NCBI GenBank assembly: GCA_963746605.1
Contig: CAVVCH010000054.1
Span: forward strand, 21,366 to 85,365
Origin: an uncultured delta proteobacterium
Lineage (GTDB): Bacteria > Desulfobacterota > RBG-13-43-22
Length of the DNA: 64,000 bases
Direction: 5' to 3'
Part shown: positions 15,735 to 21,998 of the stretch, in pieces
How positions within the stretch are numbered: the stretch's first letter is position 1
How the letters are laid out: every line of letters starts with the position of its first letter
Position numbers and translations under genes: made by a program
Notes under the pieces: model-generated
Told to the model about the DNA's origin: nothing
Seen by the model: the letters and a program-made list of their open reading frames with translations, nothing else
Databases searched by the model: none

Positions 15735-15950
15735 ACCCCATTACTCCCTCCCTCCTTACTCCTTACGGTATTCAGCCCTGCGATCCGCCCTCGCGACTGA
15801 CAGCTTGCGTTCTCTTTCGGCTCACTGCCTTCCGCTTTCAATCCTCTTTCTCCCAATCTATGATTTCTCTCTTCTGTCCTCTCTCTTCTCCCTTCTTCCT
15901 CTCCCCTCTTCCATCTTGTCTTTTTCCCTTGACTTCCTACAAAACCTTTT
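15735..15950 (+). repeat. Polypyrimidine (C/T-rich) low-complexity tract
   Basis: About 200 bp that is almost entirely C and T on the plus strand, e.g. ctctttctcccaatctatgatttctctcttctgtcctctctcttctcccttcttcctctcccctcttccatcttg. Confidence 0.6.
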
Positions 15951-16052: not shown

Positions 16053-16337
16053 ATGAGGGCCTTTAAACGCGTTCCGAAGTGAAGAGCTGCTACCCGAGGA
16101 ATTATTGGGTTTATTCAGAACAATGGCTGGTTTTACTCATTGGCCCGCCGGAAGCTGAGACAACTTGAGATTGCCGGTAGGATAGATGATCTGAGAGTGC
16201 CGCCCGGAAATCGTCTTGAAACACTCAAAGGTGATCGTTACGGCCAGTACAGTATTCGTATCAACGATCAATGGCGTGTCTGTTTTAATTGGAATGAAGA
16301 AGTTGCAGAAAATGTTGAAATCGTGGATTACCATTAA
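16053..16337 (+). pseudogene. higB: HigB-family toxin, degraded (N-terminal part out of frame)
   Basis: C-terminal 65 codons read RKLRQLEIAGRIDDLRVPPGNRLETLKGDRYGQYSIRINDQWRVCFNWNEEVAENVEIVDYH, a typical HigB C-terminus; the only ATG (16053) gives MRAFKRVPK then a stop. Confidence 0.55.
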
Positions 16338-16349
16338 GGAGACCCAATC

Positions 16350-16602
16350 ATGAATAAACTCAAACCCATTACTCCCGGTGAAATCCTGCTGGAAGAATTT
16401 CTTAAACCGATGGGGTGAACCAGTTCGCTTAGCCAAAGACATAGGAGTCCCACCCCAGCGCATCAGCGATATTGTTGCCGGTAAGCGAGCCATACGGCGG
16501 ACACCGATGGCACTACGGCTGTCCAGATCCTCTGGTCTGACGAACGGCTACTTGGCTGCGCGCTCAGGCTGCCCATGCATCACTGAAATCGCGGAGCGTT
16601 GA
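16350..16602 (+). pseudogene. higA: HigA-family HTH antitoxin, frameshifted
   Basis: MNKLKPITPGEILLEEFLKPMG then a frame change; second frame ...LAKDIGVPPQRISDIVAGKRAI... is the Xre-type HTH. Confidence 0.55.
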
Positions 16603-16609
16603 ACTGATC

Positions 16610-17500
16610 GGTTCTGGCAAAAATCAGCCCCTCCCCACACCACCTAGCATGCGGGTCCGCACTAGGCGGTTCCCAGAGGCTACCGAGCCGTAGCCGGGTA
16701 ATGGATGTTTACCCACTGATCTTTGACAGACAGCAAACCTTGATCCTTGAGTCACGCCAAGGCGTGATCATGCCTGTCTGGGTGGCCAGCGTGCGTGAGA
16801 GTCGCCAGGGGCCTTTCCGGCTCATCCCGACCGAGATAGCGGTCCGCAGGTGTTCATTGGGATTGGGCTTATCGGCAACGCGCCGGCCACTCGCTCCCCC
16901 GGACGGGTTTATGGCGATGGTCGAGCTTACCGGGCCTTTTCCCTGCTCTGGGTTCGGTCCTTCGTTCGTTGATGGCGAACTACTATGACCTCGGCTGACT
17001 CCTGCCCGGTCAATCGACATGTTTCCAGGCCGGATGCTGTCCAATGTTAACTGGACCGCCTGCCGAACAGGTCTCCCCGGACTCAGTTCAGTACTCCCTC
17101 AGGGGTTAAGACGTGATCTGTCGTTACACAACCGCGGCATTTACCGCGTCTCCTAAACCCGGGGCTTTGTCATGTCGTGCTGACTTACCCGGAGACTTGG
17201 CCTTGTATGCCATTTCTGTACCCCGGATCAGGTCCGGGGCAGGCTTGGCTCATAGCTTTGCGCTCCAGCTTCCTTCGGACGATCCCTCGCGAGCATCGCC
17301 CTTGCTTTCGGCTAGTATTTATGTTCCTGTCTTACGACAGTACGGGTTTACATCAGGGGACTTTCACCCCATAAGATCACGCCCATGCCGGGCGTACACT
17401 AGAATCGTTCGCACCGGATCGGCACCGCTACCCCGGGACAAAACGCGGACATGAAGCTGGTCTCGTGACAAAATGGTCGAGGCTACCGATGGAAAGGATT
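16610..17500. other. ORF-free GC-rich segment of about 0.9 kb; candidate structured RNA or decayed element
   Basis: Six-frame ORFs here give only Pro/Arg/Ser/Gly-rich non-protein-like translations; many local hairpins, e.g. CCCCGGA-ucagg-UCCGGGG at 17221-17239. Confidence 0.2.
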
Positions 17501-18363
17501 ATGGAGGAATACGGACAAGAGGAACCGTGGATGTATAATTCAAAACAAAGTCCTTCGTAATGGTGCAACAAAGATCGATGAAGCAGTTGTATCCTGCTAA
17601 AGAACTTGCCTCCATTAGCTGTAGGTCGCAGGGAATGTTTTCCGGCATGCGGGACGTCATTATGTTTGATCGAAGCAGGTGTCTTGGCGCATATCTGTTT
17701 TTTGATATGCCAGGCGAGGCGAGCTACCTAACGGCAGGACATCTTGCGCAGGTCTTAGGAGGGAAGGCAAGTTTTAAGCGTGAATTGTCGCGCATTTGAT
17801 CAGAAATCCAATGCAAGTCAATCCTCTGGACCTCTATGGGGTCTTTCGTTTCTTTGCGATCCAAGAATTCTTGATGAACTGCTCTGGCATTTCCATAAGA
17901 AAGGAGGTTGGCCATTTCTTTCAGGCCCAGAGATTCGCCCTTTCGGCTCCGGTGGCCAGTTTCTGGATGTCCACGATTTCATGAACGCATGGGCAACGTT
18001 GGGAATCGGCGAACTCACTTTTGCCTTGGGCCAAACGATTGACTCAACTGCGGACATTCTTGCGGTCAATGCAATGCGTGCGGCGGGAATGAGCAACGTA
18101 CTGAATTTGGAGGCGGGCGAATTTTCAGAAGGCCTCTATCATTCTGAAATGGCAATACTTGTCATGCATATCGATCTGGGTACGGATTAGAAAACTCAGG
18201 CCAAGGTGAAGCCGCGAGAGGCTATAAAAGCAAGAAAATGCCCGAACAACCGCGTCAACACCGACCGGCGCCACACGGGTTTCCCAGAGCTCGTTCGCCG
18301 AGCAAAAATGGGGTCAAATCTTTATTATTGACATCTTCTGTTCTAATTTGATACAGGGATTCC

Positions 18364-18906
18364 ATGAGCCGACCTTTGCGCATCCGATATCCCGGGGCGG
18401 TATATCACGTCACCTGTCGGGGCAATGACCGTCAGGACATCTTCCGGGACGATACGGACCGGACGGAGTTCCTGGAAATCCTGGCGGGGTCCCAAACCAT
18501 CTATAACGTGAAGATGTACGCCGCGGTTTTGATGGGGAACCATTTTCATTTGCTGCTGGAGACCCCTCTGGGCAATCTGAACGAATTCATGCGGCGGTTT
18601 AACATCACGTATACCGGCTATTTCAACCGCCGGCACCGGCGGGTGGGCCACTTGTACCAGGGCCGATATAAAAGCATTCTGGTAGAAAAAGAGAGCTATC
18701 TGTCCGAGCTGTCCCGTTATATCCACTTGAACCCGGTCCGGACCCGAGAGCTGGAATCGGAGAACGCCAAAGTCCGGTGGCACTATCTGCTGGACTATCC
18801 CTGGAGCACCTTCCCGGGATATTTGAATGCCAAAGACCGATGGCCGGGGGTGGATTACGGGTTGGTCTTAGGTGAATTCGGCGTGGACAACCCGAATAAA
18901 AGATAA
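18364..18906 (+). CDS. Y1 HuH transposase-like protein (IS200-like fold), truncated paralog
   Basis: 180 aa nearly identical to the first 170 aa of ORF 20843..21823 (HVTCRGN, HFHLLL, YQGRYKS); diverges after ...EFG and ends early. Confidence 0.7.
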   Translation: MSRPLRIRYPGAVYHVTCRGNDRQDIFRDDTDRTEFLEILAGSQTIYNVKMYAAVLMGNHFHLLLETPLGNLNEFMRRFNITYTGYFNRRHRRVGHLYQGRYKSILVEKESYLSELSRYIHLNPVRTRELESENAKVRWHYLLDYPWSTFPGYLNAKDRWPGVDYGLVLGEFGVDNPNKR

Positions 18907-19262
18907 AGTAATGGAACACGTGTTCTCCGGACGTCTTAGTCACGCGGGCATCGATACAGCGAAGCGAAAATCGTCGGCGGTCAATGTTCATGGTACCGGG
19001 TCGGGGAATACCCAACAGGATGCCGGGATACACCATCTAATGCAACGTGCTTCGATCGATGATGTCATTTCGACATGAAGCCTTGACTTGGGGTATGGGA
19101 TCCCAACGGGGCAGGCCCGGTTTGGCTAACAGCATAGAAGCCGATCGAGTGGGCGGAGTTAGATCTGCCAGACGGGGGACCGGGTTTGCCGCCTTGGCTG
19201 GATATTGGCGTTAGCCCGGAGACAAGATTGACAAAAGGCACACATTGTCGTAATCATATTAT

Positions 19263-19541
19263 ATGAATGTCTTTCGATGGGATAATGAAAAAAACGAGAT
19301 GCTCAGGAAGAACAGAGGTGTTTGTTTTGAACAGGTTGTCATACTGATGGAAAGAGGAGATGTTCTCGATACAATAGAACATCCAAACCAGGATAGATAT
19401 CCAGGACAAAAGATCGCCATAGTCAGGATTGATGACTACGCATATCTCGTTCCTTATGTTGAAAAAAGTGAGGAGCTGTTTCTCAAAACCATTATCCCCA
19501 GTAGAAAGGCTACAAACAAGTATGTGAGGACAAAGAAATGA
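19263..19541 (+). CDS. brnT: BrnT-family toxin
   Basis: 92 aa; FRWDNEKNEMLRKNRGVCFEQVV fits the BrnT N-terminal pattern; TTGACA box at 19228-19233. Confidence 0.7.
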   Translation: MNVFRWDNEKNEMLRKNRGVCFEQVVILMERGDVLDTIEHPNQDRYPGQKIAIVRIDDYAYLVPYVEKSEELFLKTIIPSRKATNKYVRTKK

Positions 19542-19831
19542 AAAAGATAGTTTTGGATGCCGAGGAAAAGGATATCCTTGAATCATATGAGCGTGGAGAA
19601 TGGGTGCCGGTCAAGAATCCGAAGAAGGAAATAGCGAAGCTTCGGAGGTACGCAAGGAATACGCTGCAAAAAGACAAGAGAATCAACATTCGAATGTCGT
19701 CGAAGGACTTAGACCAGGTGCAGGTCATCGCCGCACAAGAAGGCATCCCTTATCAGACTCTGGTATCCAGTATCATTCATAAGTATGTTTCCGGATATCT
19801 TATCGAGAAAGAAAGAAGGCTTAACGATTAG
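19538..19831 (+). CDS. brnA: BrnA-family antitoxin
   Basis: 97 aa; KRINIRMSSKDLDQVQVIAAQEGIPYQTLVSSIIHKYV is the BrnA C-terminal motif; 4-bp ATGA overlap with brnT. Confidence 0.7.
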   Translation: MKKIVLDAEEKDILESYERGEWVPVKNPKKEIAKLRRYARNTLQKDKRINIRMSSKDLDQVQVIAAQEGIPYQTLVSSIIHKYVSGYLIEKERRLND

Positions 19832-19895
19832 CTGCACCGGACGAGGCAAAACTAGCACGCCGGTGAGCACCATGTTAGCCTCAGGAGGATAGAGG

Positions 19896-20354
19896 ATGGA
19901 AGAGAAGAATAAAATAACCGAGGCGCTTCGTTTGATATTCGAAGGAATAGACCGCCTGAAGAGGGCATTCCCGAAGAAGGAGTTCACGATTGATGGACGT
20001 CTCGTCGGGGACATAGGCGAGATTATCGCTGCACTTGAATATGATGTTGAACTCTTTGATGTCCTGTGCGAAGGGTATCACGGCAAGACGTCGGATGGTC
20101 GTCTGGTACAAGTTAGGGCGACATTTAAAGACTCTCTTACGTTCCCCTCTGTCCCTGACTATTATTTAGGTCTTAAGCTACACCGAGACGGGACCCACGA
20201 AGAAATCTACAACGGTCCCGGAAAACTGATTTACGAGAAATACAAGCATAGAAGTGGCATAGGAAAGAAATTGCTATCGTTCCCTAATATTGATCTACGA
20301 GAGCTATCTGCCAGGGTACTAAGAAATGATCGTATTCCAAAGCGCAAGGGCTAA
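19896..20354 (+). CDS. Hypothetical protein (152 aa) in the cargo segment
   Basis: Uninterrupted ORF with no family recognised by eye; appears AT-richer than flanking chromosome. Confidence 0.5.
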   Translation: MEEKNKITEALRLIFEGIDRLKRAFPKKEFTIDGRLVGDIGEIIAALEYDVELFDVLCEGYHGKTSDGRLVQVRATFKDSLTFPSVPDYYLGLKLHRDGTHEEIYNGPGKLIYEKYKHRSGIGKKLLSFPNIDLRELSARVLRNDRIPKRKG

Positions 20355-20367
20355 CAAGTGCGTCCAC

Positions 20368-20449
20368 CCGATCGCCGAAAAAACCGGCTCCGGGTGATGT
20401 CATCGTTGATCGTCAAGGTGGAACCGGTCGCGGTGGACGCCTCCTTCGT
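20368..20449. repeat. Cassette-associated repeat, copy A (part 1 and part 2)
   Basis: Part 1 CGATCGCCGAAAAAACCGGCTCCGGGTGATG recurs at 23429-23459; part 2 GTTGATCGTCAAGGTGGAACCGGTCGCGGTGGACGCCTCCTTCGTA recurs at 25938-25982. Confidence 0.5.
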
Positions 20450-20594
20450 AAATGGGTAGATGAGGAGTCATGACGTTCTTTGGATGCTTGTGCAGGTCAG
20501 AGACCGGATCAGCTCCAGCGAAACCTTTCCCTGCTGTCCTTTCCGGTGCCCCTCATGGGATTAGTCAGGGACAAATACCGGGCGAGGTTGTTGC

Positions 20595-20810
20595 ATGAAT
20601 TCTACCGTATCTACTTTTCCAGAACGCGTGGCCTGGATCCTGTTGGGATTGGGCCTCCTCTTCGCCCTCCTTTTCCACCTGGTGCCAGGACTACTGGCGG
20701 GCCTTCTGGTTTACAGTCTCATACATCGCCTGGACCTGCAACTTCACCGCAGGCGCTGGACCAGCAAGAAAAATGCGCGCCTGGCGGCCCTGGGGTCATC
20801 TTATTGTTGA
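20595..20810 (+). pseudogene. Possible N-terminal fragment of a membrane protein (AI-2E/PerM-like) cut at the edge of the duplicated Y1 segment
   Basis: VAWILLGLGLLFALLFHLVPGLLAGLLVYSLIHRLDLQLHRRRW resembles AI-2E transporter N-termini; ORF ends where the duplicated sequence begins (20806). Confidence 0.25.
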
Positions 20811-20842
20811 CATCTTCTGTTCCAATTTGATACAGGGATTCC

Positions 20843-21823
20843 ATGAGCCGACCTTTGCGCATCCGATATCCCGGGGCGGTATATCACGTCACCTGTCGGG
20901 GCAATGACCGTCAGGACATCTTCCGGGACAATACGGACCGGACGGAGTTCCTGGAAATCCTGGCGGGGTCCCAAACCATCTATAACGTGAAGATGTATGC
21001 CGGGGTTTTGATGGGGAACCATTTTCATTTGCTGCTGGAGACCCCTCTGGGCAATCTGAACGAATTCATGCGGCGGTTTAACATCACTTATACCGGCTAT
21101 TTCAACCGCCGGCACCGGCGGGTGGGCCACTTGTACCAAGGCCGATATAAAAGCATTCTGGTAGAAAAAGAGAGCTATCTGTCCGAGCTGTCCCGTTATA
21201 TCCACTTGAACCCGGTCCGGACCCGAGAGCTGGAATCGGAGGACGCCAAAGTCCGGTGGCACTATCTGCTGGACTATCCCTGGAGCACCCTACCGGGATA
21301 TTTGAATGTCAAAGACCGATGGCCGGGAGTGGATTACGGGTTGGTTTTAGGTGAATTCGGCGGGGACAACCCGAAGGGACGGCGTGGTTATGGAAAACGG
21401 ATCCGAGAGGACCTCGTCGGGGGCATCGAACTGAAAGGAAAAATAGTCGGCGGGTGTGTTCTGGGCCGGGCGGGTTATATCCAATGGGTCCGGGAAAAAC
21501 ACATTAAGGAACTGCCGGTCGGGGATTACACCGGATATAAAGCCTTGAAACGCTATCGATCCAAGGAGCAGGTCCTGGATTTGCTGGCAGTAGAAACCGG
21601 CCTGAGTTTGGAAGAGGTTAAATCTTCCAAGGGGGACCGGCGCCGGTTGGCCATGGAATTGCTGTACCGGGTGGGCGGATTGACCGGAGACGAGATCGGA
21701 AGCCTTTTCGGGATAGGCGCCAGCGCAGTCAGTCAGGAAAGGAAAAGGCTGGTGTCCCGAATGGCGGAAGATGAGGCCGTGAAAAAGCTGTTTGAGGAAC
21801 TGTTTTCGAAATGTTCGGTATAG
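20843..21823 (+). CDS. Y1 HuH transposase-like protein with C-terminal DnaA-like HTH domain, full-length paralog
   Basis: 326 aa; HuH motif HFHLLL, tyrosine region YQGRYKS, C-terminal ...GLTGDEIGSLFGIGASAVSQERKRL. Confidence 0.75.
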   Translation: MSRPLRIRYPGAVYHVTCRGNDRQDIFRDNTDRTEFLEILAGSQTIYNVKMYAGVLMGNHFHLLLETPLGNLNEFMRRFNITYTGYFNRRHRRVGHLYQGRYKSILVEKESYLSELSRYIHLNPVRTRELESEDAKVRWHYLLDYPWSTLPGYLNVKDRWPGVDYGLVLGEFGGDNPKGRRGYGKRIREDLVGGIELKGKIVGGCVLGRAGYIQWVREKHIKELPVGDYTGYKALKRYRSKEQVLDLLAVETGLSLEEVKSSKGDRRRLAMELLYRVGGLTGDEIGSLFGIGASAVSQERKRLVSRMAEDEAVKKLFEELFSKCSV

Positions 21824-21998
21824 ATCCCGGGCCAAGTCGTGAGGCCTGGCCCTGGCATGATTTGAAGGGTTATGGAAAAGAAGGAATATAATAAATAAAG
21901 AATTGACCCCTTTTCTCCTTTTTACGCTTTTCTGACCGAAATTTGGGTGAAAAGGATTTTGGCAGAGGAACCATAAACAGTTATTCTTACAAAGGAGG

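What the first reader, a model, noticed from the sequence alone, without database searches (positions are those of the whole stretch)
16610..17500. About 0.9 kb ORF-free, hairpin-rich segment inside the accessory region
Between the decayed higBA pair and the first Y1 transposase-like gene there is no ORF with protein-like composition in any frame; translations are Pro/Arg/Ser/Gly-rich. The segment contains many perfect local hairpins (for example CCCCGGA-ucagg-UCCGGGG, ACGCCC-atgcc-GGGCGT, GGGG-acuuuca-CCCC, CGCGG-cauuua-CCGCG). It could be a large structured RNA, an ORF-less intron or retroelement remnant, or a decayed gene. I could not match it to RNase P, tmRNA, rRNA or a canonical group II domain V.
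Basis: seen in the sequence. Interest (0 to 1): 0.5.

Follow-up and report, generated by a model that had tools for sequence, protein, structure and literature searches.

The report
Truncated ORF-less group IIC intron relic
The hairpin-rich, gene-free 0.9 kb is the minus-strand remnant of a bacterial group IIC self-splicing intron that has lost its reverse-transcriptase gene and its 3' end, a common kind of dead mobile element; sister copies elsewhere show the gene-less form has spread to several sites.

Summary
Window 16628-17399 has no real ORF and is strongly structured. It is not an unknown RNA. On the minus strand it is a group II intron of class C (IIC). Rfam gives D1-D4 matches of 93 and 63 bits. 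D5 is 100% identical to that of full-length relatives and has the IIC hallmarks: a CGC triad and a distal stem 2 bp shorter.

Compared with full-length relatives (L012, L062, L127), this copy lacks about 1.09 kb of domain IV, which is IEP residues 10-372, deleted between two ACCTGC repeats. It also stops inside D6 at 16628, where it is fused to the frameshifted higA tail. Branch point and 3' splice site are gone, so this copy cannot splice or move.

The same ORF deletion occurs in three other contigs (L126, L129, L130) with different 3' flanks; the 5' flank is cut off in L129 and related in L130. All three have a complete D6. L126 and L130 sit just downstream of a stem-loop. That suggests a small non-autonomous IIC family mobilised in trans, which is inferred, not shown. 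An unoccupied copy of the L130-type hairpin lies at 20360-20397.

Verdict: an ordinary retroelement relic, a new member of a known kind, of low to moderate interest.

The parts
16628..17399 (-). Whole intron remnant (772 nt): group IIC intron, domains I-V plus an 11-nt stub of D6. The IEP ORF is deleted.
   Evidence: Homology to L062, L012, L126, L127 and L129 runs from 17399-17402 to 16628 and stops there in every comparison. Rfam hits.
17075..17399 (-). Domain I. It starts with the conserved 5' end GUGUACGCCC. It contains the IIC-typical AGGAA motif (17274-17270) and the Rfam RF02001 match (17296-17110).
   Evidence: Sequence conservation across relatives starts exactly at GTGTACG and the upstream flanks differ. 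RF02001 scores 93.2 bits. Boundaries are approximate, from the RNAalifold consensus. The AGGAA motif is described in PMC1702495.
16956..17074 (-). Domains II and III with the J2/3 linker (AGUCAGCCGAGGUCAUAGUA). Includes the RF01998 match at 17036-16957.
   Evidence: RF01998 scores 62.7 bits. Consensus fold. Domain limits are approximate.
16671..16955 (-). Domain IV remnant. It holds IEP codons 1-9 (16873-16847) fused to the last ~55 IEP codons (16852-16683), with the relic stop codon TAG at 16682-16680.
   Evidence: tblastn of the intact L012 IEP against the window finds only residues 1-9 and 373-427. Alignments to L062, L012 and L127.
16846..16851 (-). Deletion junction. ACCTGC microhomology marks where about 1.09 kb (IEP residues 10-372) was lost.
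   Evidence: L127 carries TACCTGC at both breakpoints (GAATACCTGCTGG and CTTACCTGCGGAC). The same junction is present in L126, L129 and L130.
16639..16670 (-). Domain V, 32 nt: ACCGCCUAGU-GCG-GACC-CGC-AU-GCUAGGUGGU. It has a CGC triad and a 3-bp distal stem.
   Evidence: Identical to L062, L012 and L008. The same D5 form gave 120 exact-pattern hits in genomes, and 117/120 keep both variable pairs, with 5 pair types. RF00029 scores 27 bits only because D6 is missing. IIC features are from PMC1702495.
16628..16638 (-). Stub of domain VI: the D5-D6 linker plus the 5' strand (GUGGGGAGGGG). The loop, the 3' strand, the bulged A and the 3' splice site (…CUCCCCCUUACCCGAU|U in relatives) are absent.
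   Evidence: all relatives continue and the window diverges after 16628. No copy of the missing piece exists elsewhere in the window. The alternative local fold is no better than shuffles (z -0.3).
17227..17248 (-). Optional 22-nt module in domain I. It creates the perfect hairpin CCCCGGA-CCUGA-UCCGGGG (17239-17221).
   Evidence: Present in the window, L126, L127 and L130. Absent in L129, L062 and L012.
17082..17106 (-). Optional ~24-nt module at the 3' base of domain I.
   Evidence: Shared only with L127, the full-length parent-like copy. Absent in L126, L129, L062 and L012. Unique within the window.
16752..16767 (-). 16-nt palindrome TCACGCCTTGGCGTGA in the IEP 3' relic. It adds 5 nt relative to L062 and L012 and frameshifts the IEP tail.
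   Evidence: Present in the window, L126, L127, L129 and L130.
17400..17445 (-). 5' exon flank: a degenerate, loop-deleted copy of a REP-like stem-loop (…CCCGGGGTAGCGG-TGCCGATCCGGTGC…) followed by an 11-nt spacer ending in CUA.
   Evidence: Alignment with the L130 5' exon and with the empty hairpins. The fold itself is weak (z +1.4).
16351..16627 (+). Frameshifted higA remnant. Its C-terminal reading (…WLRAQAAHASLKSRSVELIGSGKNQ) runs up to the truncation point of the intron.
   Evidence: tblastn finds HigA antitoxins (532 plasmid records). Alignment with Marinobacter and Chloroflexota HigA.

Best explanation
Window 16628-17399 (minus strand) is a dead copy of a bacterial group IIC (class C) intron.

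Its ancestor was a ~1.9 kb retroelement: a ribozyme (domains I-VI) with a reverse-transcriptase/maturase gene in domain IV. Such elements insert just downstream of a DNA stem-loop.

Step 1. A 1.09 kb deletion between two ACCTGC repeats removed IEP residues 10-372. The ribozyme stayed intact, giving a non-autonomous ORF-less form. Shown: the same junction occurs in three other contigs (L126, L129, L130).

Step 2. That form came to occupy several sites, most likely by borrowing the IEP of a related full-length intron in trans. This step is inferred.

Step 3. In the window copy a later rearrangement removed the distal half of domain VI, with the branch-point A and the 3' splice site, plus the 3' exon. 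The stub is now fused to the 3' end of a decayed higA gene (shown).

If transcribed, the RNA would still fold into a D1-D5 core. It can neither complete splicing nor retrotranspose. I expect no cellular function.
For: Family.
- Rfam RF02001 scores 93 bits and RF01998 scores 63 bits on the minus strand.
- D5 is identical to that of full-length relatives.
- That D5 form is widespread and covaries: 117/120 hits keep both variable pairs.

Class IIC.
- CGC triad, shortened distal stem of D5 and AGGAA motif, as defined in PMC1702495.
- The IEP of the intact relative L012 matches GsI-IIC RT (6AR1) at E 6e-136 over its full length, and the E. rectale IIC maturase (7UIM) at 9e-104.

ORF deletion.
- L062 and L012 carry 1091-1092 extra nt between window 16846 and 16851.
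- L127 has TACCTGC at both breakpoints.
- Only IEP residues 1-9 and 373-427 remain in the window.

Truncation.
- All eight relatives with readable 3' ends continue …GGGGGAG..CUCCCCCUUACCCGAU|U. The window diverges after 16628.
- The following bases read as the higA C-terminus.

Family of ORF-less copies.
- P0001/L126, P0047/L129 and P0048/L130 share the junction and the 16-nt palindrome. They have different 3' exons and a complete D6.
- Stem-loops lie 2-9 nt upstream of L126, L127, L121 and L065.

Background. Most bacterial group II intron copies are truncated or inactivated and sit among other mobile DNA (PMC4424553).
Against: - The 5' exon hairpin of the window copy is weak (z +1.4).
- I could not find a consistent EBS1-IBS1 pairing across relatives.
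- The window copy has few private substitutions relative to L126 and L127: 13 in all, of which 3 break pairs. It is therefore not heavily decayed, and a residual D1-D5 activity cannot be excluded.
- Mobility of the ORF-less form in trans is not demonstrated. Ectopic gene conversion among full-length copies could also spread one deletion allele.
- No IEP source was found, because only 64 kb of the source genome is available.
- Transcription is untested.
Confidence: 0.9

Rival explanations
1. It is an intact, functional ORF-less IIC intron. Its domain VI has diverged (GGAG-GGGCUGAU…AUCAGUUC-AACG-CUCC, 3' end …GCGAU at about 16588) and it is spliced by an IEP supplied in trans.
For: cmscan aligns RF00029 through 16598 (27 bits, local E 0.007). 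By eye, a stem with a bulged A-rich loop and a GAU 3' end can be drawn in 16585-16638. D1-D5 are well preserved.
Against: The score is below the gathering threshold (27 vs 40), while relatives reach 43-44.5. Homology to every relative stops at 16628. The candidate stem lies in DNA that reads as the HigA C-terminus. Its fold is not better than shuffles (z -0.3).
Confidence: 0.04
2. It is a domesticated D1-D5 ribozyme or structured non-coding RNA. It would be kept for a host function, for example cis-cleavage at the 5' junction or a regulatory antisense RNA to higBA, rather than being a relic.
For: D1-D5 alone can be catalytically competent in IIC introns: the crystallised O. iheyensis form lacks domain VI (PMC4748821 abstract). 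The window copy has few pair-breaking private changes (3 of 13).
Against: The truncated form is seen only here, and all sister copies keep D6. Its neighbours are decayed genes and transposases. There is no conservation test for this form, because no second truncated copy was found. Against L062 and L012, the window lineage shows 5 of 14 pair-breaking changes, versus 1 of 18 on the L012 lineage.
Confidence: 0.03
3. It is mainly a heavily frameshifted protein gene, the reader's "decayed gene" option.
For: About 64 residues of the intron-encoded RT/maturase are still recognisable. Database gene callers have annotated spurious ORFs here (P0001, P0047).
Against: Those ORFs have no Pfam domain. Their conservation follows RNA helices. 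About 500 of the 772 nt are ribozyme domains with covariance-model support. The RT and X domains are absent, not frameshifted.
Confidence: 0.01
4. The shared ORF deletion spread among pre-existing full-length copies by homologous recombination or gene conversion, not by retromobility of the ORF-less RNA. This is a rival only to step 2 of the main explanation.
For: The optional modules are mosaic among copies. The 22-nt module is absent in L129. The 24-nt module is found only in the window and L127. This pattern suggests recombination between copies.
Against: The copies lie in at least three different assemblies or samples. The two with a readable 5' flank (L126, L130) sit in the position typical of IIC insertion, just after a stem-loop. 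Each would need a full-length predecessor at the same site.
Confidence: 0.3

Closest known systems
Bacterial group IIC (class C) introns, e.g. B.h.I1 of Bacillus halodurans, O.i.I1 of Oceanobacillus iheyensis, GsI-IIC
   Same: D5 has a CGC triad and a distal stem 2 bp shorter. The AGGAA motif is present. D1-D3 is compact. Relatives encode an En-less RT/maturase closest to GsI-IIC RT. Sister copies are inserted a few nt downstream of a stem-loop (PMC1702495, PMC4424553).
   Different: The window copy has no IEP and no distal D6 or 3' splice site. Position 5 of the intron is A (GUGUA), not the G of GUGYG, as in all its close relatives. The lineage carries optional 22-nt and 24-nt hairpin modules in domain I.
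ORF-less derivative introns mobilised in trans, e.g. the Thermosynechococcus elongatus family (PMC2882425) and the rare bacterial ORF-less introns reviewed in PMC4424553
   Same: An internal deletion of the IEP leaves an intact ribozyme. The same derivative is found in several contigs. Related IEP-bearing copies exist (L012 with an intact IEP; L062 and L127 with an interrupted one).
   Different: Those families are IIB/CL-type and their trans-mobilisation was shown experimentally. Here the class is IIC, and mobility is only inferred from four copies with a shared junction. The window copy itself is additionally truncated.
Group IIC-attC introns of integrons (S.ma.I2 lineage; PMC3001079)
   Same: A IIC intron lying antisense to neighbouring small accessory genes (toxin-antitoxin pairs), next to an imperfect palindrome. 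Plasmid IIC introns in Klebsiella, Citrobacter and Enterobacter give weak D1 matches.
   Different: I saw no integron integrase and no array of attC sites in this window. Only one further copy of the hairpin is present. The hairpin looks REP-like or terminator-like rather than like a canonical attC. I did not test this systematically.

Membership tests
Group II intron ribozyme (Rfam clan CL00102 plus RF00029) | Domains I-IV match the covariance models | tested here: met
   RF02001 scores 93.2 bits (GA 32) and RF01998 scores 62.7 bits (GA 35) on the minus strand.
Group II intron ribozyme (Rfam clan CL00102 plus RF00029) | Domain V hairpin with a catalytic triad and a 2-nt bulge | tested here: met
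   D5 at 16670-16639 is identical to the D5 of full-length relatives. Covariation in 120 genome hits: 117/120 keep both variable pairs.
Group II intron ribozyme (Rfam clan CL00102 plus RF00029) | Conserved 5' end (GUGYG) | tested here: met
   GUGUACG at 17399 is where conservation with all relatives begins. Position 5 is A instead of G, as in the close relatives including L012, whose IEP is intact.
Group II intron ribozyme (Rfam clan CL00102 plus RF00029) | Domain VI with a bulged branch-point A, and a 3' splice site | tested here: not met
   Only the 11-nt stub remains. Relatives continue …CUCCCCCUUACCCGAU. RF00029 scores 27 bits, below GA 40.
Mobile (autonomous) group II intron | RT/maturase ORF in domain IV | tested here: not met
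   Only IEP residues 1-9 and 373-427 remain. There is no other RT in the 64 kb window.
Group IIC / class C | D5 distal stem 2 bp shorter and CGC instead of AGC (PMC1702495) | tested here: met
   D5 reads ACCGCCUAGU-GCG-GACC-CGC-AU-GCUAGGUGGU. cmscan shows the 4-nt gap at the D5 tip and CGC at the triad position.
Group IIC / class C | Conserved AGGAA in the epsilon-prime region bulge (PMC1702495) | tested here: met
   CCGAAGGAAGC at 17278-17268, in a block that is near-invariant across the relatives aligned. The position within an 11-nt bulge was not modelled in 3D.
Group IIC / class C | Class C IEP lacking an endonuclease domain | tested here: met
   Tested on relatives. The L012 IEP (427 aa) aligns end to end with GsI-IIC RT 6AR1 (E 6e-136) and with the 7UIM IIC maturase. 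The window's C-terminal relic matches the L012 tail.
Group IIC / class C | 5' exon stem-loop in place of IBS2, followed by a 3-4 nt IBS1 | tested here: inconclusive
   Stem-loops are strong upstream of L126 (z -2.6 as RNA, -4.4 as DNA), L127, L121 and L065. The window's own flank is a degenerate copy with a weak fold (z +1.4).
Group IIC / class C | EBS1-IBS1 and EBS3-IBS3 pairings; no EBS2 | tested here: inconclusive
   3' exons of relatives all start with U. I compared candidate D1 loops with eight 5' exons by eye and found no consistent EBS1 register. Absence of EBS2 was not modelled.
Functional ORF-less intron (spliced or mobilised in trans) | Complete D1-D6 ribozyme with both splice sites | tested here: not met
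   Not met for the window copy. Both ends are present in L126. L129 has a complete D6 but its 5' end is cut by the contig end.
Functional ORF-less intron (spliced or mobilised in trans) | A related IEP-encoding intron in the same genome | not testable with these tools
   Only 64 kb of the source genome is available. Exact-protein look-ups did not find the source assembly.
IIC-attC introns | Insertion in an integron attC site, antisense to the cassettes | not tested
   Orientation is antisense to the higBA, brnTA and DUF6998 genes. No systematic attC or intI search was made. Only one further hairpin copy lies in the window.

The most novel reading that the evidence does not exclude
The IEP-deleted form is a living, MITE-like non-autonomous group IIC retroelement. 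It is copied by the reverse transcriptase of a related full-length intron. It homes to a REP-like stem-loop (TCACCSGGAGCCGG-N7-GGCGATCSGGTGG) that is scattered through a group of environmental deltaproteobacteria-like genomes. On this reading the window holds one dead copy (16628-17399) and one still-empty target (20360-20397).

A more remote reading, about 3% likely, is that the D6-less D1-D5 core has been kept as a ribozyme.
Probability: 0.4. Interest if true: 0.45.

Novelty: new member of a known kind. Interest (0 to 1): 0.3.

Why it matters
For annotation, it turns a puzzling 0.9 kb "ORF-free structured segment" into a defined feature: a minus-strand IIC intron relic with mapped domains, a deletion junction and a truncation point. 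It also shows why domain V searches tuned to IIA/IIB introns miss class C.

For mobile-element biology the window copy itself is ordinary. Most bacterial group II intron copies are truncated or inactivated (PMC4424553). The modest added value is at the family level. [quoted passage not shown] Here one IIC deletion derivative is found in four contigs with polymorphic hairpin modules, and two of the copies sit next to a shared REP-like stem-loop. That offers a small natural system to test trans-mobilisation and stem-loop targeting of IIC introns.

Tried and rejected
1. I first took GUGCG at 17414-17410 as the 5' end. I rejected this because conservation with all relatives begins at GUGUACG, 17399.

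2. I first read D5 as degenerate, 4 nt short with no GNRA loop. I rejected this because the same sequence is found in 120 genome hits, next to ltrA genes, and it is the documented IIC form (PMC1702495).

3. cmscan extends D6 to 16598. I rejected this extension.

4. A metagenome scan for the deletion junction returned one hit (L125).

5. Exact-protein look-ups of four window ORFs to identify the source genome found nothing on record.

6. I tested whether the hairpin modules belong to a repeat family in the window. They are unique. There are no bracketing repeats around the relic.

7. The missing D6 3' strand is not elsewhere in the window.

8. Viral contig scans for the junction and for the 22-nt module gave zero hits.

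9. I compared candidate D1 loops with the 5' exons of eight copies by eye to find EBS1. There was no consistent register, so I left it as inconclusive.

10. I considered an integron/attC reading of the hairpin at 20360-20397. Only weak R''/R'-like ends could be picked out by eye, and there is no array. I did not pursue it.

Full report
**Observation**

The segment contains only short ORFs of 113 aa or less, and none has a Pfam domain. Its minus strand folds better than shuffled controls, with z = -3.1.

An Rfam scan of the whole 64 kb window gave exactly two hits above gathering score. Both lie inside the finding and both are on the minus strand:
- RF02001 group-II-D1D4-3, 17296-17110, 93.2 bits, E 1.5e-17.
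- RF01998 group-II-D1D4-1, 17036-16957, 62.7 bits.

A permissive scan added RF00029 (D5/D6) at 16671-16598 with 27 bits, below the gathering score of 40.

**Which kind of intron**

The D5 looked aberrant at first. It has CGC instead of AGC and a distal helix of only 3 bp closed by GACC.

A distant BLAST against plasmids matched this D5 at 91% to a site immediately downstream of an annotated ltrA gene in Polaromonas JS666 plasmid 2. At the two variable helix positions, 117 of 120 keep both pairs, with five different pair combinations.

[quoted passage not shown] The window has CGC, the short distal stem, and AGGAA at 17274-17270.

The closest relative with an intact IEP is L012, a Deltaproteobacteria MAG. 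It encodes a 427-residue protein that aligns end to end with the GsI-IIC reverse transcriptase (6AR1, E 6e-136) and with the Eubacterium rectale IIC maturase (7UIM, E 9e-104). From memory only, as a lead and not a test, the O. iheyensis IIC intron sequence resembles this one closely in D1 and D5. I therefore file the element as group IIC / class C.

**Boundaries and lesions**

BLAST and MAFFT comparisons with relatives drawn from the 120 pattern-scan hits (L062, L012, L065, L121 and others) gave the following.

- 5' end. Conservation begins at GTGTACGCCC, window 17399, and the upstream flanks differ between loci. My first guess of GUGCG at 17414 was wrong.
- ORF deletion. Relative to L062 and L012 the window lacks 1091-1092 nt of domain IV, between 16851 and 16846. 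tblastn with the L012 IEP finds only residues 1-9 (16873-16847) and 373-427 (16852-16683) in the window, and no other RT gene in the 64 kb.
- Origin of the deletion. The closest full-length relative is L127 (JGI sample 3300037608), at 92.5-93.8% identity. Its own IEP is interrupted by an IS21-like element. It carries TACCTGC at both breakpoints, so the deletion is a simple microhomology event.
- 3' truncation. Homology to every relative ends at 16628, eleven bases past D5 (GUGGGGAGGGG). All relatives continue with the D6 loop, the 3' strand, the bulged A and …CCCGAU|U. No copy of the missing piece lies elsewhere in the window.
- What follows the truncation. The DNA that follows in the window reads, on the plus strand, as the C-terminal part of a frameshifted HigA antitoxin. 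The sequence …WLRAQAAHASLKSRSVELIGSGKNQ aligns with Marinobacter HigA …WLRVQTAYDTEIAEDALEDQLKNIRPW. The D6-like stem that cmscan and I could draw there is no more stable than shuffles (z -0.3).

The remnant is therefore 16628-17399 and 772 nt long. It has D1-D5 intact, the IEP deleted and D6 decapitated.

**State of decay**

On an RNAalifold consensus of seven relatives, 108 of 117 D1-D3 pairs are kept in the window copy. That compares with 115 for L062 and 116 for L012.

With L062 and L012 as references, changes private to the window lineage are 11 unpaired, 9 pair-preserving and 5 pair-breaking. On the L012 lineage the counts are 18, 17 and 1. With the much closer L126 and L127 as references, only 13 private substitutions remain, of which 3 break pairs. 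The relic is thus young or slowly decaying. Its inactivation rests on the two large lesions, not on point mutations.

**Three "insertions" that turned out to be lineage features**

Relative to L062 and L012 the window has three extra pieces:
- a 22-nt piece that builds the perfect CCCCGGA/UCCGGGG hairpin (17248-17227);
- a ~24-nt piece (17106-17082);
- a 16-nt palindrome, TCACGCCTTGGCGTGA (16767-16752).

None is repeated elsewhere in the window. All three are present in L127. The palindrome is in all sister copies. The 22-nt module is in L126, L127 and L130 but not in L129. The 24-nt module is only in the window and L127. They are optional modules of this sub-lineage, with a mosaic distribution.

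**A family of ORF-less copies**

Gene callers often annotate spurious ORFs in such RNA. I therefore searched the protein database with the two window ORFs that cross the deletion junction.

- The sense ORF (16709-17044, minus) found P0001: 89% identity, 100% coverage. It lies on contig L126 from JGI sample 3300027902.
- The antisense ORF (16701-16988, plus) found P0047 (97%) on L129 and P0048 (80%) on L130, a 486 kb contig.

All three contigs carry the same junction and the palindrome. All three have a complete D6 and different 3' exons: TAGCCCGCG, TATGCCATGG and TATGCGTTTT. L130 has a further 234-nt internal deletion.

L129's neighbours are a Y1 transposase and a BrnT/CopG pair. They are 95-97% identical to window 18306-21907 and 19224-19874, but the intron sits at a different place. 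So L129 comes from a close relative of the source organism.

P0009/L128 is an independent ORF-deleted IIC derivative with a different junction. A junction-pattern scan of metagenome contigs gave only a chance hit. Viral contigs gave none.

**Target site**

Stem-loops end 2-9 nt upstream of the intron in L121, L065, L126 and L127, with z from -2.1 to -4.4. This is as expected for IIC introns (PMC1702495, PMC4424553).

The 5' exon of L130 is a hairpin, TCACCGGGAGCCGG-ATTTATT-GGCGATCCGGTGG. The same element occurs unoccupied in the window at 20360-20397, five bases after the DUF6998 stop codon, and in L126 at 2443-2480. A loop-deleted, degenerate version precedes the window's intron at 17400-17445.

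I could not derive a consistent EBS1-IBS1 register.

**Mechanism**

Shown:
- class IIC identity;
- the IEP deletion between microhomologies;
- the D6 truncation fused to higA;
- the same deletion allele in four contigs with different 3' flanks.

Inferred:
- the ORF-less form was propagated by an IEP supplied in trans, as documented for ORF-less derivatives in Thermosynechococcus (PMC2882425) and suggested for the rare bacterial ORF-less introns (PMC4424553);
- gene conversion among full-length copies is the main alternative, and the mosaic modules give it some weight.

The window copy lacks the branch point and the 3' splice site, so it can neither splice nor reverse-splice. At most its D1-D5 core could hydrolyse the 5' junction if transcribed. 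IIC cores without D6 can be active (PMC4748821). Nothing suggests selection for this.

**Novelty and verdict**

Truncated and inactivated group II intron copies among other mobile DNA are the rule in bacteria (PMC4424553). The finding is explained and ordinary for the window itself. The small surplus is the evidence for a dispersed ORF-less IIC derivative with a recognisable stem-loop target and an empty site in the same window.

I rate it as a new member of a known kind, interest 0.3, and my confidence in the main identification is about 0.9.

Noticed in passing
window 20360-20397: REP-like hairpin CACCCGATCGCCGAAAAAACCGGCTCCGGGTG, five bases after the DUF6998 stop codon. It is 89% identical to L126 2443-2480 and homologous to the stem-loop just upstream of the sister intron in L130. 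It looks like an unoccupied target site for this intron lineage. It is the only copy matching the pattern searched in the window.
   Followed up: partly
window 18322-18621 and 20801-21100 (genes 18364-18906 and 20843-21823): Two copies of a Y1 (IS200-like, PF01797) transposase gene with 98% identical 5' regions. The first is truncated to 180 aa and the second is 326 aa. L129 carries the same gene next to the same BrnT/CopG pair, in a different arrangement.
   Followed up: partly
window 16140-16337 and 16351-16627: The higBA pair really is decayed. The HigB ORF covers only profile positions 30-91 of PF05015. higA needs at least two frameshifts and has lost its last codons at the junction with the intron stub.
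   Followed up: partly
window 19263-19831 and 19896-20354: An apparently intact BrnT-like toxin / CopG-type antitoxin pair (weak Pfam scores), followed by a DUF6998 gene. All are on the plus strand, antisense to the intron relic.
   Followed up: no
window ~15800-15935: A pyrimidine-rich, low-complexity tract (ctctcttctcccttcttcctctcccctcttcc…) with strong negative GC skew (-0.35), upstream of the higB remnant.
   Followed up: no
window 17780-18190: A 136-aa ORF between the intron's 5' flank and the first Y1 transposase has no Pfam match. No gene could be assigned to 17400-18300.
   Followed up: no
L001 (Polaromonas sp. JS666 plasmid 2) 1740-5420: Two IIC introns with ltrA genes lie in tandem. 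The second intron's GUGCG starts immediately after the …GCCGAU 3' end of the first, as if D6 of the first served as the target stem-loop.
   Followed up: no
L127 1885-3965 and 868-1001: In the full-length parent-like intron, the IEP is split by an IS21-like element (rve transposase plus AAA_22 helper). A fragment of a different group II intron (RF02012) lies on the opposite strand just upstream.
   Followed up: no
L128 14-775: An independent ORF-deleted IIC derivative. It fuses the start of domain IV to the end of the IEP X domain (…RRLRMCFWKQWRY…), so ORF loss has happened more than once in this class.
   Followed up: partly
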